Part shown: one piece after another, positions 5,781 through 6,514 of the stretch | How the letters are laid out: each line of letters begins with the position of its first letter | Numbering within the stretch: the stretch's first letter is position 1 | Source: a virus | Taxonomy: Duplodnaviria; Heunggongvirae; Uroviricota; Caudoviricetes | Direction: 5' to 3' (one strand) | Virus record (IMG/VR): IMGVR_UViG_2690316131_000009 | DNA length: 7,425 nucleotides | The notes under the pieces: model-generated | Database searches by the model: none | The model's input: the letters and a program-made list of their open reading frames with translations, nothing else | Told to the model about the DNA's origin: nothing | Translations under genes and position numbers: made by a program

Positions 5781-6222
5781 GCTCCTCTCCTTTGATGCGA
5801 ATACCAGCAACACGTAGTACGTGCTCTAAATCAGCCAGATAAATCCAGCAGCCATTTTCTTTAGGTATCATGACGTGGCGCTCATCAGCATTTATCGGAT
5901 GTCCATATCGAAGGCCGTAGCGAGTCGGTAAATGAACTTCCCGCGCTTCCAGCTCTTTAACGCGCTCCTCGAGTTCGTAGACTCTGCATTGTTCTTCATC
6001 ATCAATCAGATATAACCCTAGACATTCGCTTTCTACCCAGCCACCGAAATCATGATCGTAACGCTCACACGAAAACTCACCATCGCTGTCCTTTGTTGGA
6101 ATGGTGTAACTGTCTAATGGGCCACCATACGTCGGTACATTTCCCAATTTCGGATGCTCAATCCACATGAAAAATGCACGTCCGGTTATTGGGCAAATAT
6201 CTGGTCGCCATTGGTTACTCAC
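5758..6222 (-). CDS. Hypothetical phage protein (154 aa)
   Basis: Preferred start is GTG at 6222..6220, 6 nt after a perfect AGGAGG; the ATG at 6249 has no SD. The GTG overlaps the end of the DUF4406 gene. No confident family. Confidence 0.7.
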   Translation of the reverse strand: MSNQWRPDICPITGRAFFMWIEHPKLGNVPTYGGPLDSYTIPTKDSDGEFSCERYDHDFGGWVESECLGLYLIDDEEQCRVYELEERVKELEAREVHLPTRYGLRYGHPINADERHVMIPKENGCWIYLADLEHVLRVAGIRIKGEEHGNKTRR

Positions 6223-6514
6223 TGTTTGCCTCCTGGAAAATAACTGCATGCCCCAGCTTCTCCGCCAGTGCCAGTTCTGCCTTAGCGCCTGCCGACCGCT
6301 GCCAGCCTTTCAGCATGTAAATCGCATCCACGCAGCGTATCATTGACATGCAAATATCCATGTAGTGCGGCTGTGTCAGCCCGTCCGGAAGTACTGCCGG
6401 GTTTAAGACTGTATGCCCTTCCCGTTTCAGTTCCTCTTCCGCCTTGTGGAACGCCTCACGGTTGAAATTTTTATACCCGGTCATCGGACCGGCGATATAA
6501 ACCCTCACCCTCAC
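6215..6514 (-). CDS. DUF4406-like protein (nucleoside 2-deoxyribosyltransferase-like fold)
   Basis: 99 aa with the hallmark N-terminal VYIAGPMTG motif and ...LKGWQRSAGAKAELALAEKLG. GTG start at 6514..6512 overlaps the upstream TGA (GTGA), with AGGAGG 7 nt upstream. Confidence 0.8.
   Translation of the reverse strand: MRVRVYIAGPMTGYKNFNREAFHKAEEELKREGHTVLNPAVLPDGLTQPHYMDICMSMIRCVDAIYMLKGWQRSAGAKAELALAEKLGHAVIFQEANSE

What the first reader, a model, noticed from the sequence alone, without database searches (positions are those of the whole stretch)
6215..6514. DUF4406 (deoxyribosyltransferase-like) gene in the replication-proximal region
The YIAGPMTG-type fold is shared with nucleoside 2-deoxyribosyltransferases and related N-glycosidases. 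A nucleotide-acting enzyme carried by a phage could serve nucleotide salvage or act on nucleotide-based host signals. No function is established for this family as far as I know.
Basis: partly seen in the sequence, partly recalled or inferred. Interest (0 to 1): 0.35.

Follow-up and report, generated by a model that had tools for sequence, protein, structure and literature searches.

The report
Small phage nucleotide-cleaving enzyme, uncharacterised family
This prophage gene encodes a 99-residue member of the uncharacterised DUF4406 family, a stripped-down relative of enzymes that cut the base off (deoxy)nucleotides; it most likely trims the deoxynucleotide pool during phage growth, but the gene is common and already catalogued, and no member has been assayed.

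Summary
Window 6215-6514 (minus strand) is a 99-aa ORF matching Pfam DUF4406 (E=7e-38). It sits in the early-right operon of a lambdoid prophage, after a DnaC-like loader and a DUF977 gene. RefSeq holds it at 99.7% identity, and 1214 of 5426 complete E. coli genomes carry it.

A confident AlphaFold model matches nucleoside 2-deoxyribosyltransferases, human DNPH1 and the CMP N-glycosidases MilB, BcmB and BlsM.

Profile alignments place Y6, S74, G76 and E80 on the orienting Tyr, the two phosphate ligands and the Glu nucleophile. The spacings equal MilB's D78/S97/G99/E103. The third triad residue is Cys55 here. It is Asp in most divergent relatives, and C and D interchange among close ones.

In 78 diverse viral loci, DUF4406 is fused to a dNMP kinase (6) or DUF6378 (9). 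A DUF5664-type dATP/dGTP diphosphohydrolase is adjacent or fused in 9 and never lies farther away. All of these are Asp-type members.

Best reading: a minimal (d)NMP N-glycosidase or deoxyribose-5-phosphate transferase working through a covalent Glu80 intermediate. The closest characterised phage analogue is DmtZ. Nothing supports a role against immune signals. No DUF4406 protein has been assayed. Moderate interest.

The parts
6215..6514 (-). DUF4406 gene, 99 aa. It is a minimal four-strand domain of the nucleoside-deoxyribosyltransferase/DNPH1 fold. Key residues: Y6, G9, N18, P39, C55, S74, G76, E80.
   Evidence: ORF; Pfam PF14359 E=7e-38; AlphaFold2 pLDDT 90.8; Foldseek matches to NDT, DNPH1 and MilB; residue conservation.
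6275..6295 (-). Codons for S74-A-G76-A-K-A-E80. This is the S-x-G-x3-E motif: the predicted 5'-phosphate ligands plus the Glu nucleophile.
   Evidence: Aligned to S-P-G-T-H-I/V-E of the CMP N-glycosidases BcmB and BlsM, and to D-C-G-T-A-F-E of T. brucei NDT. Same spacing as MilB S97/G99/E103 (PMC4081090). S74, G76 and E80 are (near-)invariant in 63, 146 and 78 sequences.
6350..6352 (-). Codon for Cys55. It occupies the position of the general-acid Asp (Asn in TbPDT and DmtZ) of the NDT-superfamily triad.
   Evidence: Aligned to the Asp of BcmB and BlsM, the Asn of trypanosomatid NDTs and the Asn of Wayne DmtZ. C55 to E80 is 25 residues, as is MilB D78 to E103. Column counts: C 98 and D 19 of 146 close representatives; D 66 of 78 divergent viral homologues. 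C and D interchange among close relatives.
6511..6527 (-). Translation start region: AGGAGG Shine-Dalgarno, a 7-nt spacer, then GTG start 6514-6512, which overlaps the DUF977 TGA stop (6513-6511). A second in-frame GTG lies at 6508.
   Evidence: Read from the sequence. RefSeq PGAP uses the same 300-nt CDS in a 99.7% identical copy.
6511..6903 (-). Upstream DUF977 gene (phrog_142, 'Ren-like exclusion protein'), apparently translationally coupled to the DUF4406 gene. It is a variable neighbour, not a fixed partner.
   Evidence: Pfam PF06163 E=1e-51. It is the upstream neighbour in only 22 of 78 related enterobacterial loci.
6918..7425 (-). DnaC-like helicase loader, a replication gene. It runs off the window end.
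   Evidence: IstB_IS21 and phrog_50. The reading frame stays open to the window end.

Best explanation
The gene encodes a minimal, probably oligomeric enzyme of the nucleoside-deoxyribosyltransferase (NDT)/DNPH1 superfamily that acts on a (deoxy)nucleoside 5'-monophosphate.

Proposed mechanism, inferred by homology. S74 and G76, probably with the flexible G9-R19 loop, hold the 5'-phosphate. Glu80, oriented by Tyr6, attacks C1' and forms a covalent (deoxy)ribosyl-5-phosphate-enzyme ester as the base leaves. Cys55 stands where the other enzymes have the acid Asp or Asn. Water then releases (deoxy)ribose 5-phosphate, making it a hydrolase. Alternatively, because the 'transferase' proline P39 is kept, a second base may accept the sugar-phosphate, making it a transferase.

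The gene is expressed from the early-right operon together with the replication genes. It would reshape the dNMP pool during lytic growth by destroying or exchanging an unwanted, non-canonical or surplus dNMP. The substrate base is not known.

Shown here: family membership, the fold, conservation and alignment of the residues, and the fusion and adjacency statistics. Inferred: the chemistry, the substrate class and the biological role.
For: Family and fold:
- Pfam DUF4406 at E=7e-38.
- The AlphaFold2 model has pLDDT 90.8. Its best PDB matches are NDTs, human DNPH1, MilB, BcmB and BlsM (probability 1.0, TM 0.70-0.78 on the query).
- The family profile finds T. brucei NDT by sequence at E=1e-4.

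Active site:
- YIAGP aligns to YIAGP, and S74-x-G76-x3-E80 aligns to the S-P-G-T-H-[IV]-E of CMP N-glycosidases.
- In MilB, S97 and G99 bind the phosphate, D78 binds ribose and base, and the nucleophile is E103. The spacings are identical to C55/S74/G76/E80 (PMC4081090).
- In DNPH1 the triad is Y24/D80/E104 and S98 binds the phosphate (PMC10603095).
- Nucleoside-specific NDTs carry Asp at the S74 position. Phosphate-specific members carry small uncharged residues there (PMC12884076).
- Y6, G9, N18, P39, S74, G76 and E80 are (near-)invariant across 146 representatives and 78 divergent viral homologues.
- Position 55 is Asp in 66 of 78 divergent members. It switches between C and D among relatives about 50-70% identical. 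So Cys55 occupies a real catalytic position.

Association in 78 diverse IMG/VR loci:
- DUF4406 is fused to a P-loop dNMP kinase in 6 loci and to DUF6378 in 9.
- Homologues of Wayne gp51 lie at +1 or -1 in 8 loci and are fused in 1. This is the DUF5664/PF18909 domain, a characterised dATP/dGTP diphosphohydrolase.
- That is 8 of 155 adjacent genes against 0 of 739 farther genes (Fisher p=7e-7).

Precedent:
- Phage DmtZ is an NDT-fold dAMP hydrolase and deoxyribose-5-phosphate transferase. Its triad is Y6/N77/E103. It is fused or adjacent to dATP/dGTP-hydrolysing enzymes (PMC12884076).
- It aligns in register with the DUF4406 profile.
Against: - No DUF4406 protein has been assayed.
- All nucleotide-enzyme fusions and adjacencies found are in Asp-type members. 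The Cys-type enterobacterial genes have variable neighbours unrelated to nucleotides.
- Cys in place of the triad Asp or Asn has no characterised precedent in this superfamily among the papers I read.
- The protein lacks the C-terminal third or so of NDT, DNPH1 and DmtZ. That part supplies second-subunit active-site residues: S128' in DNPH1 and W124' in DmtZ. The pocket may therefore be open or completed differently.
- The oligomeric state could not be modelled.
- Residue equivalences rest on profile alignments and spacing, not on superposed coordinates.
- The hhalign match to DmtZ is weak (E=0.14).
- The loci in the adjacency test are not all phylogenetically independent.
Confidence: 0.5

Rival explanations
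1. It is a true nucleoside 2-deoxyribosyltransferase. It would swap bases between free deoxynucleosides for salvage, as many phage annotations ('nucleoside 2-deoxyribosyltransferase') say.
For: The best single PDB match is T. brucei NDT. The 'transferase' proline P39 is invariant (PMC12884076). phrog_355 carries this name.
Against: The residue that binds the 5'-OH in NDTs is Asp. Here it is an invariant Ser, as in the 5'-phosphate-specific enzymes. PF05014 does not report this protein at E<=0.01. The C-terminal part that completes NDT active sites is missing. Relatives are fused to dNMP kinase and dNTP diphosphohydrolase, which points to phosphorylated substrates.
Confidence: 0.12
2. It is a counter-defence protein. 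It would cleave or sequester a nucleotide-derived immune signal (cADPR isomers, cyclic oligonucleotides) or NAD-related molecules, using the fold it shares with TIR and CD38-type glycohydrolases.
For: It is small and phage-encoded, expressed early, accessory, and patchily distributed (22% of E. coli genomes). TIR domains appear among weaker structural matches (4w8g, E=8e-3). The lack of a C-terminal lid could admit larger ligands.
Against: There are no PADLOC hits. No known anti-defence genes neighbour it. The best matches and the motif register are with NDT, DNPH1 and MilB, not TIR. The family-wide associations are with dNMP and dNTP enzymes. No paper links the family to defence.
Confidence: 0.1
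3. It acts on a nucleotide that is part of a polymer or a larger conjugate, for example a DNA or RNA terminal or modified nucleotide. The missing lid would leave the active site open.
For: The chain ends after beta4, so the helical extension that closes the pocket in DNPH1 and DmtZ is absent. The gene sits among DNA-transaction genes: replication, HNH, RusA and methylases.
Against: No nucleic-acid-binding domain or motif was detected. The link to DNA methyltransferases does not hold outside one enterobacterial lineage. The fusion partners act on free nucleotides.
Confidence: 0.1
4. It is a non-catalytic nucleotide-binding or regulatory protein, a pseudo-enzyme, because the triad acid has been lost.
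For: Asp to Cys at the triad position. Very small size.
Against: Glu80, S74, G76, Y6, N18 and P39 are under strict conservation in the Cys-type too. Cys and Asp interchange repeatedly while the rest of the motif stays fixed. That is the pattern of a functional residue rather than decay. Trypanosomatid NDTs and DmtZ are active with Asn at this position.
Confidence: 0.08

Closest known systems
Pfam DUF4406 (PF14359); RefSeq 'DUF4406 domain-containing protein'
   Same: Full-length match at 129 bits. A 99.7% identical copy is annotated in E. coli 2013C-3342. 12,130 clusters at 50% identity are related at E<=1e-3.
   Different: Nothing: it is a member. The family has no characterised member.
DNPH1/Rcl, 2'-deoxynucleoside 5'-phosphate N-hydrolase (human, rat)
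   Same: Same fold. It has a Tyr/Glu pair, and a Ser six residues before the Glu that binds the 5'-phosphate. It works through a covalent glycosyl-Glu mechanism (PMC10603095).
   Different: DNPH1 has Asp80 where this protein has Cys55. It has a C-terminal helical extension that donates S128' to the partner's site, plus the E55/H56 element. It is about 130-150 residues in the crystallised chains against 99 here. No sequence-level hit.
MilB / BcmB / BlsM, CMP and hydroxymethyl-CMP N-glycosidases
   Same: The S-x-G-x3-E motif aligns directly. MilB's D78/S97/G99/E103 spacings equal C55/S74/G76/E80, and S97 and G99 contact the phosphate.
   Different: These enzymes have Asp, not Cys. They lack the post-beta2 proline. 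They carry Arg23 and Phe22 for base and phosphate recognition. They are longer and belong to antibiotic biosynthesis clusters.
DmtZ of dZ-genome phages (Gordonia phage Ghobes, Arthrobacter phage Wayne gp53)
   Same: A phage-encoded NDT-fold enzyme specific for a dNMP (dAMP). It has both hydrolase and deoxyribose-5-phosphate transferase activity, a non-Asp triad residue (Asn77) and the conserved proline. It is fused or adjacent to dATP/dGTP-hydrolysing enzymes, as Asp-type DUF4406 genes are.
   Different: DmtZ is not detected as DUF4406 by Pfam, and the profile match is weak (E=0.14). It is about 145 aa with five strands and a W124' lid. It is tied to PurZ and 2-aminoadenine genomes, which lambdoid E. 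coli prophages are not known to have.
Class I/II nucleoside 2-deoxyribosyltransferases (PF05014; L. leichmannii, T. brucei, L. mexicana)
   Same: Best structural and profile matches. YIAGP, the proline and the Glu nucleophile align.
   Different: These have Asp at the 5'-OH position where this protein has Ser74. They have Asp or Asn at the Cys55 position and a C-terminal third that completes the active site. PF05014 does not score this protein.
Retron-Eco1 (Ec86) NDT-like effector
   Same: An NDT-like domain used in phage-host conflict. It is reported to deplete adenine derivatives.
   Different: It is a host defence effector: bilobed, msDNA-bound and filament-forming. There is no retron context here.
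DUF1937 (PF09152; PDB 1T1J)
   Same: Another small uncharacterised family of the same fold. It gives a weak Pfam cross-hit (E=4e-4, below its cut-off) and a Foldseek match.
   Different: Below the gathering score, so a different family.

Membership tests
Pfam DUF4406 (PF14359) | Score above the curated gathering cut-off over the whole domain | tested here: met
   129.3 bits against 22; profile positions 2-91 of 91.
NDT/DNPH1 superfamily | Rossmann-like alpha/beta fold of the N-(deoxy)ribosyltransferases | tested here: met
   Model pLDDT 90.8. The top 37 PDB matches are all NDT, DNPH1, MilB or related chains, with TM 0.7-0.78 on the query. It covers only about half to two-thirds of those chains (TM on target about 0.5).
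NDT/DNPH1 superfamily | Glutamate nucleophile after the penultimate strand | tested here: met
   E80 aligns to the catalytic Glu of T. brucei NDT, BcmB and BlsM. It is invariant in 63 of 63 sequences, is present in 135 of the 137 representatives aligned at that column, and in 76 of 78 viral homologues.
NDT/DNPH1 superfamily | Tyrosine at the end of beta1 that orients the Glu | tested here: met
   Y6 in YIAGP aligns to YIAGP of T. brucei NDT. The column is Y in 123 and F in 17 of 146 representatives, and Y in 77 of 78 viral homologues.
NDT/DNPH1 superfamily | Asp (or Asn) as third triad residue and general acid | tested here: not met
   The aligned residue is Cys55. Other DUF4406 members do have Asp there: 66 of 78 divergent and 19 of 146 close.
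NDT/DNPH1 superfamily | Active site completed by C-terminal residues of a second subunit in a dimer | tested here: not met
   The chain ends 6 residues after beta4, so no C-terminal helix or extension exists. Whether it oligomerises could not be modelled with these tools.
(d)NMP N-glycosidases (DNPH1, MilB, BcmB, BlsM) | Ser and Gly phosphate ligands in S-x-G-x3-E instead of the Asp of nucleoside-specific NDTs | tested here: met
   S74 and G76 are invariant. They align to S-P-G of BcmB and BlsM, with the same spacing as MilB S97/G99/E103.
(d)NMP N-glycosidases (DNPH1, MilB, BcmB, BlsM) | Hydrolysis of a nucleoside 5'-monophosphate to base plus (deoxy)ribose 5-phosphate | not testable with these tools
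   Needs an enzyme assay.
Nucleoside 2-deoxyribosyltransferase proper (PF05014) | PF05014 match, and Asp binding the 5'-OH (L. leichmannii Asp92 position) | tested here: not met
   No PF05014 hit at E<=0.01. The position is Ser74, where NDTs have D-C-G-T. The L. leichmannii residue numbering is from my own knowledge.
DmtZ (dAMP hydrolase / dR5P transferase of dZ phages) | Detectable homology to DmtZ, an Asn triad residue, and linkage to PurZ and dATP/dGTP hydrolases | tested here: not met
   hhalign gives E=0.14, though the alignment is in register. The residue is Cys, not Asn. No PurZ, DutZ or DUF5664 gene is in the window. No PurZ lies within +/-4 kb in 160 related loci.
Anti-defence or defence proteins (PADLOC models; TIR-like NADases) | Match to a defence-system model, or placement in a defence or anti-defence locus | tested here: not met
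   No PADLOC hit. The neighbours are replication, Ea22-like, HNH and ParDE genes.

The most novel reading that the evidence does not exclude
The Cys-type DUF4406 proteins of proteobacterial temperate phages may be a new catalytic variant of the NDT superfamily. They would have a Tyr-Cys-Glu site in a lid-less 99-residue domain. Their substrate would be neither a canonical dNMP nor a nucleoside. It could be a modified or damaged dNMP, or a nucleotide-derived immune molecule or chain terminator made by the host. If so, one of the commonest unannotated genes of E. coli prophages would be a pool-sanitising or counter-defence enzyme.
Probability: 0.15. Interest if true: 0.65.

Novelty: new member of a known kind. 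Interest (0 to 1): 0.38.

Why it matters
DUF4406 is very widespread. It has about 12,000 clusters at 50% identity, is present in 520 deposited phage genomes, and occurs in about a fifth of complete E. coli genomes, including prophages of EHEC strains. No member has been characterised.

This analysis gives the family a concrete, testable assignment. It predicts a dNMP-level N-glycosidase or transferase, names the catalytic residues, and names the partners: dNMP kinase, DUF5664 diphosphohydrolase and DUF6378.

It also corrects misleading product names in phage records. It links the family to the recently described DmtZ logic, in which phages edit the dNMP pool. If confirmed, dNMP destruction or exchange would be a common phage strategy, not one confined to phages with modified DNA.

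Tried and rejected
- **PDB sequence search with the single protein:** no hit even at E<=10. Only the family profile reaches NDTs.
- **NCBIfam and PADLOC:** no hits for the protein or its neighbours, except that the HNH gene matches PtuB-like models.
- **Fixed partner gene in enterobacterial prophages:** rejected. In 78 loci there are 9 upstream and 22 downstream neighbour clusters.
- **'MazG fusion' suggested by PHROG and GenBank names:** the actinophage genes labelled 'MazG-like pyrophosphatase' or 'deoxycytidylate deaminase' are single-domain DUF4406 proteins. Real fusions exist, but with PF18909, DUF6378 and dNMP kinase.
- **N- or C-terminal extensions of metagenomic representatives:** no Pfam domain was found. 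Some may be over-called ORFs. The HAD-like DxDxT in P0256 is unconfirmed.
- **Link to DNA methyltransferases (modified-dNMP idea):** adjacency is enriched only within one related enterobacterial lineage (p=0.0016, non-independent). It is absent in the divergent set (p=0.54).
- **Link to 2-aminoadenine phages:** no PurZ or DmtZ homologue lies in the flanks of 160 loci. The NDTs of the metaGPA dZ study are PF05014, not DUF4406.
- **DUF6378 identity:** the PDB sequence search gave only spurious designed-repeat hits, and the PHROG names ('phosphofructokinase') are not credible.
- **Papers not held:** Kaminski & Labesse 2013 and Sikowitz 2013.
- **Limits of the tools:** model coordinates are not exposed, so residue clustering in 3D and a dimer model could not be checked.
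Full report
**1. The observation**

The ORF listing gives a 99-codon ORF at exactly 6215-6514 on the minus strand. It starts with GTG and encodes MRVRVYIAGPMTGYKNFNREAFHKAEEELKREGHTVLNPAVLPDGLTQPHYMDICMSMIRCVDAIYMLKGWQRSAGAKAELALAEKLGHAVIFQEANSE.

It matches Pfam DUF4406 (PF14359) end to end, with E=7.3e-38 and 129 bits against a 22-bit cut-off. It also matches phrog_355, 'nucleoside 2-deoxyribosyltransferase', at E=1e-47.

The start GTG (6514-6512) overlaps the TGA stop of the upstream DUF977 gene, and an AGGAGG lies 7 nt upstream. The next ORF overlaps the 3' end. No promoter-like site lies in 5600-7425.

The window is part of the early-right operon of a lambdoid prophage, read on the minus strand. 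The gene order is:
- DnaC-like loader, which runs off the window end;
- DUF977;
- DUF4406;
- an Ea22-like ORF, then a zinc-ribbon ORF;
- HNH endonuclease;
- ParD/ParE, on the opposite strand;
- DUF968, RusA and DUF1133.

RefSeq has a 99.7% identical copy annotated 'DUF4406 domain-containing protein'. The 300 bases are found in 1214 of 5426 complete E. coli genomes.

**2. Fold**

An AlphaFold2 model built from 32 homologues is confident (pLDDT 90.8, pTM 0.84). Its elements are beta1 4-8, alpha1 19-31, beta2 35-37, alpha2 48-59, beta3 64-67, alpha3 75-87 and beta4 90-93.

Foldseek against the PDB returns, before anything else:
- nucleoside 2-deoxyribosyltransferases (T. brucei 2a0k at E=3e-5; B. 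psychrosaccharolyticus, Chroococcidiopsis, Leishmania);
- human DNPH1;
- MilB, BcmB and BlsM;
- the DUF1937 structure 1t1j.

TM-scores are 0.70-0.78 on the query but only about 0.5 on the targets. The protein is the core of that fold without its C-terminal third. TIR domains appear only as weaker matches.

BFVD returns many phage proteins of the same family, some of them in longer proteins.

**3. Active site**

The single sequence finds nothing in the PDB. A 63-sequence family profile finds T. brucei NDT at E=1e-4 and, more weakly, BcmB, L. mexicana NDT, BlsM and MilB.

In those alignments:
- YIAGP pairs with YIAGP.
- S74-A-G76-A-K-A-E80 pairs with D-C-G-T-A-F-E of the NDTs and with S-P-G-T-H-I/V-E of the CMP N-glycosidases.

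For comparison, the literature on the relatives says:
- In MilB, Ser97 and Gly99 contact the phosphate, Asp78 contacts ribose and base, and the nucleophile is Glu103 (PMC4081090).
- D78/S97/G99/E103 have exactly the spacings of C55/S74/G76/E80.
- In DNPH1 the triad is Y24/D80/E104, and S98 with S128' holds the phosphate (PMC10603095).
- 5'-OH-specific NDTs have Asp or Asn at these positions. Phosphate-specific members have small uncharged residues (PMC12884076).

Across 146 representatives and 78 divergent viral homologues, Y6, G9, N18, P39, S74, G76 and E80 are (near-)invariant.

The one departure is the third triad residue. Its aligned position is Cys55 in this protein.

Three independent alignments agree on that position. 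BcmB and BlsM place their Asp there, the trypanosomatid NDTs place their Asn there, and Wayne DmtZ places its Asn there.

In the family the column reads:
- C 98 and D 19 of 146 among relatives of this protein;
- D 66 of 78 in a divergent viral set.

D-type proteins up to 58% identical to this one carry YMDID where it has YMDIC. For many D-type representatives the nearest relative is C-type.

So Cys and Asp replace each other repeatedly at a fixed, functional position. Asn at this position is compatible with activity in TbPDT and DmtZ, and N77D lowers DmtZ efficiency about 100-fold. The position tunes rather than defines activity.

P39 corresponds to the proline described as conserved in transferases.

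**4. Associations**

The family is large: 12,130 clusters at 50% identity at E<=1e-3, and 520 deposited phage genomes from Arthrobacter, Vibrio, Gordonia, Mycobacterium, Pseudomonas and other hosts.

In 79 enterobacterial loci the neighbours vary. The upstream neighbour is a DUF1627-like gene in 36 loci, DUF977 in 22, a DNA methyltransferase in 9 and DnaB in 4. Downstream there are 22 clusters. The gene therefore acts on its own.

In 78 diverse IMG/VR loci retrieved with a divergent query, Pfam scans of fused proteins and immediate neighbours and phmmer with defined seeds show:
- DUF4406 fused to a P-loop deoxynucleotide monophosphate kinase in 6 loci (for example L124);
- DUF4406 fused to DUF6378 in 9 loci;
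- homologues of Arthrobacter phage Wayne gp51 (DUF5664, PF18909 dGTP_diPhyd_N) at +1 in 6 loci, at -1 in 2, fused in 1, and nowhere else in the flanks.

For the gp51 homologues that is 8 of 155 adjacent genes against 0 of 739 farther genes (Fisher p=7e-7).

Wayne gp51 is an experimentally characterised dATP/dGTP diphosphohydrolase (PMC12884076). All of these partners make or consume dNMPs. All of them sit with Asp-type members.

**5. Precedent**

The same NAR 2026 paper characterises DmtZ. Its main features are:
- It is a phage NDT-fold enzyme that hydrolyses dAMP specifically and transfers deoxyribose 5-phosphate to 2-aminoadenine.
- Its triad is Y6/N77/E103.
- It has small residues at the phosphate pocket and a retained proline.
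- It is fused or adjacent to dATP/dGTP-hydrolysing enzymes.

I fetched Wayne gp53. Pfam sees only its dUTPase half. Its N-terminal domain aligns in register with the DUF4406 profile, weakly: P, N, S-x-G-x3-E, at E=0.14.

DUF4406 is thus a separate family with the same design and, in its Asp-type members, the same kind of partners.

**6. Explanation and rivals**

The best-supported reading is a minimal (d)NMP N-glycosidase or deoxyribose-5-phosphate transferase. It would work through a Glu80 covalent intermediate and be expressed with the replication genes to edit the dNMP pool. I put confidence at about 0.5.

The weak points are these:
- No family member has been assayed.
- The associations come from Asp-type members.
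- A Cys triad residue has no precedent in the papers I read.
- The lid and the second-subunit ligands are missing.
- I could not inspect coordinates or model an oligomer.

The rivals are a true nucleoside transferase, a counter-defence enzyme or sponge for immune nucleotides, action on polymer-linked nucleotides, and a pseudo-enzyme. Each has specific evidence against it (see Rival explanations). A counter-defence role has no positive support.

**7. Verdict**

The gene is an ordinary, widespread, already-catalogued prophage gene of an uncharacterised family.

What this work adds is a specific mechanistic assignment, the identification of the Cys/Asp triad position, the family's fusion and adjacency partners, and the link to DmtZ. 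Interest is moderate.

Noticed in passing
window 3571-3891 (+) and 3897-4196 (+): A ParD/ParE-type toxin-antitoxin pair sits on the opposite strand, in the middle of the minus-strand early operon. RefSeq annotates it in near-identical prophages.
   Followed up: partly
L083:2501-2866, L084:1672-2040, L085:2477-2845, L087:2477-2857: Some single-domain DUF4406 genes of actinophages and a roseophage carry misleading GenBank product names. Tbone gp27, R7L gp4 and Optimus gp161 are called 'MazG-like pyrophosphatase', and Polka gp53 is called 'deoxycytidylate deaminase'. For the three scanned (Tbone, R7L, Polka), Pfam finds DUF4406 plus at most a sub-threshold PF05014 match. Optimus gp161 was only aligned. 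Optimus has a second gene annotated 'MazG-like pyrophosphatase' two genes downstream (gp163), which I did not check.
   Followed up: yes
proteins P0146, P0150, P0164, P0165, P0175, P0180, P0200, P0223, P0249: A recurrent N-terminal module is fused to DUF4406 in metagenomic proteins. It carries 'WP...GW.W' motifs, present as three repeats in P0165. It has no significant Pfam match, only sub-threshold chance-level hits. It could be a new domain or an over-extended ORF call.
   Followed up: partly
L120:3986-4642, L123:1337-1972, L127, L136, L140, L168: DUF6378 (PF19905) is fused to the C-terminus of DUF4406 in 9 of 78 diverse viral loci. Its function is unknown. PDB and PHROG searches gave nothing credible. 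By context it may be another nucleotide-handling domain.
   Followed up: partly
L064-L075 upstream genes; L088 (Clown gp11/gp12); Brachyspira prophage (PMC8845278): A DNA methyltransferase often lies immediately upstream of DUF4406. An offset test shows enrichment only within one related enterobacterial lineage (p=0.0016) and none in the divergent set (p=0.54).
   Followed up: yes
L091:1281-2006 (P0256): A 241-aa DUF4406 protein has an N-terminal HAD-like DxDxT motif (ILGVDFDDTLF). It is flanked by a radical-SAM (NrdG-like) gene and a PhoH gene. Pfam does not confirm the HAD domain.
   Followed up: partly
window 64-687 (-): A 207-aa ORF at the left end corresponds to the 'helix-turn-helix domain-containing protein' next to the prophage tRNA genes in E. 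coli O26:H11. I did not examine it further.
   Followed up: no
window 5758-6249 (-): The ORF downstream of DUF4406 combines an N-terminal part annotated 'RseB domain-containing' in O26:H11 with an Ea22-like C-terminal part (phrog_250). This is an example of the mosaicism of the region.
   Followed up: no
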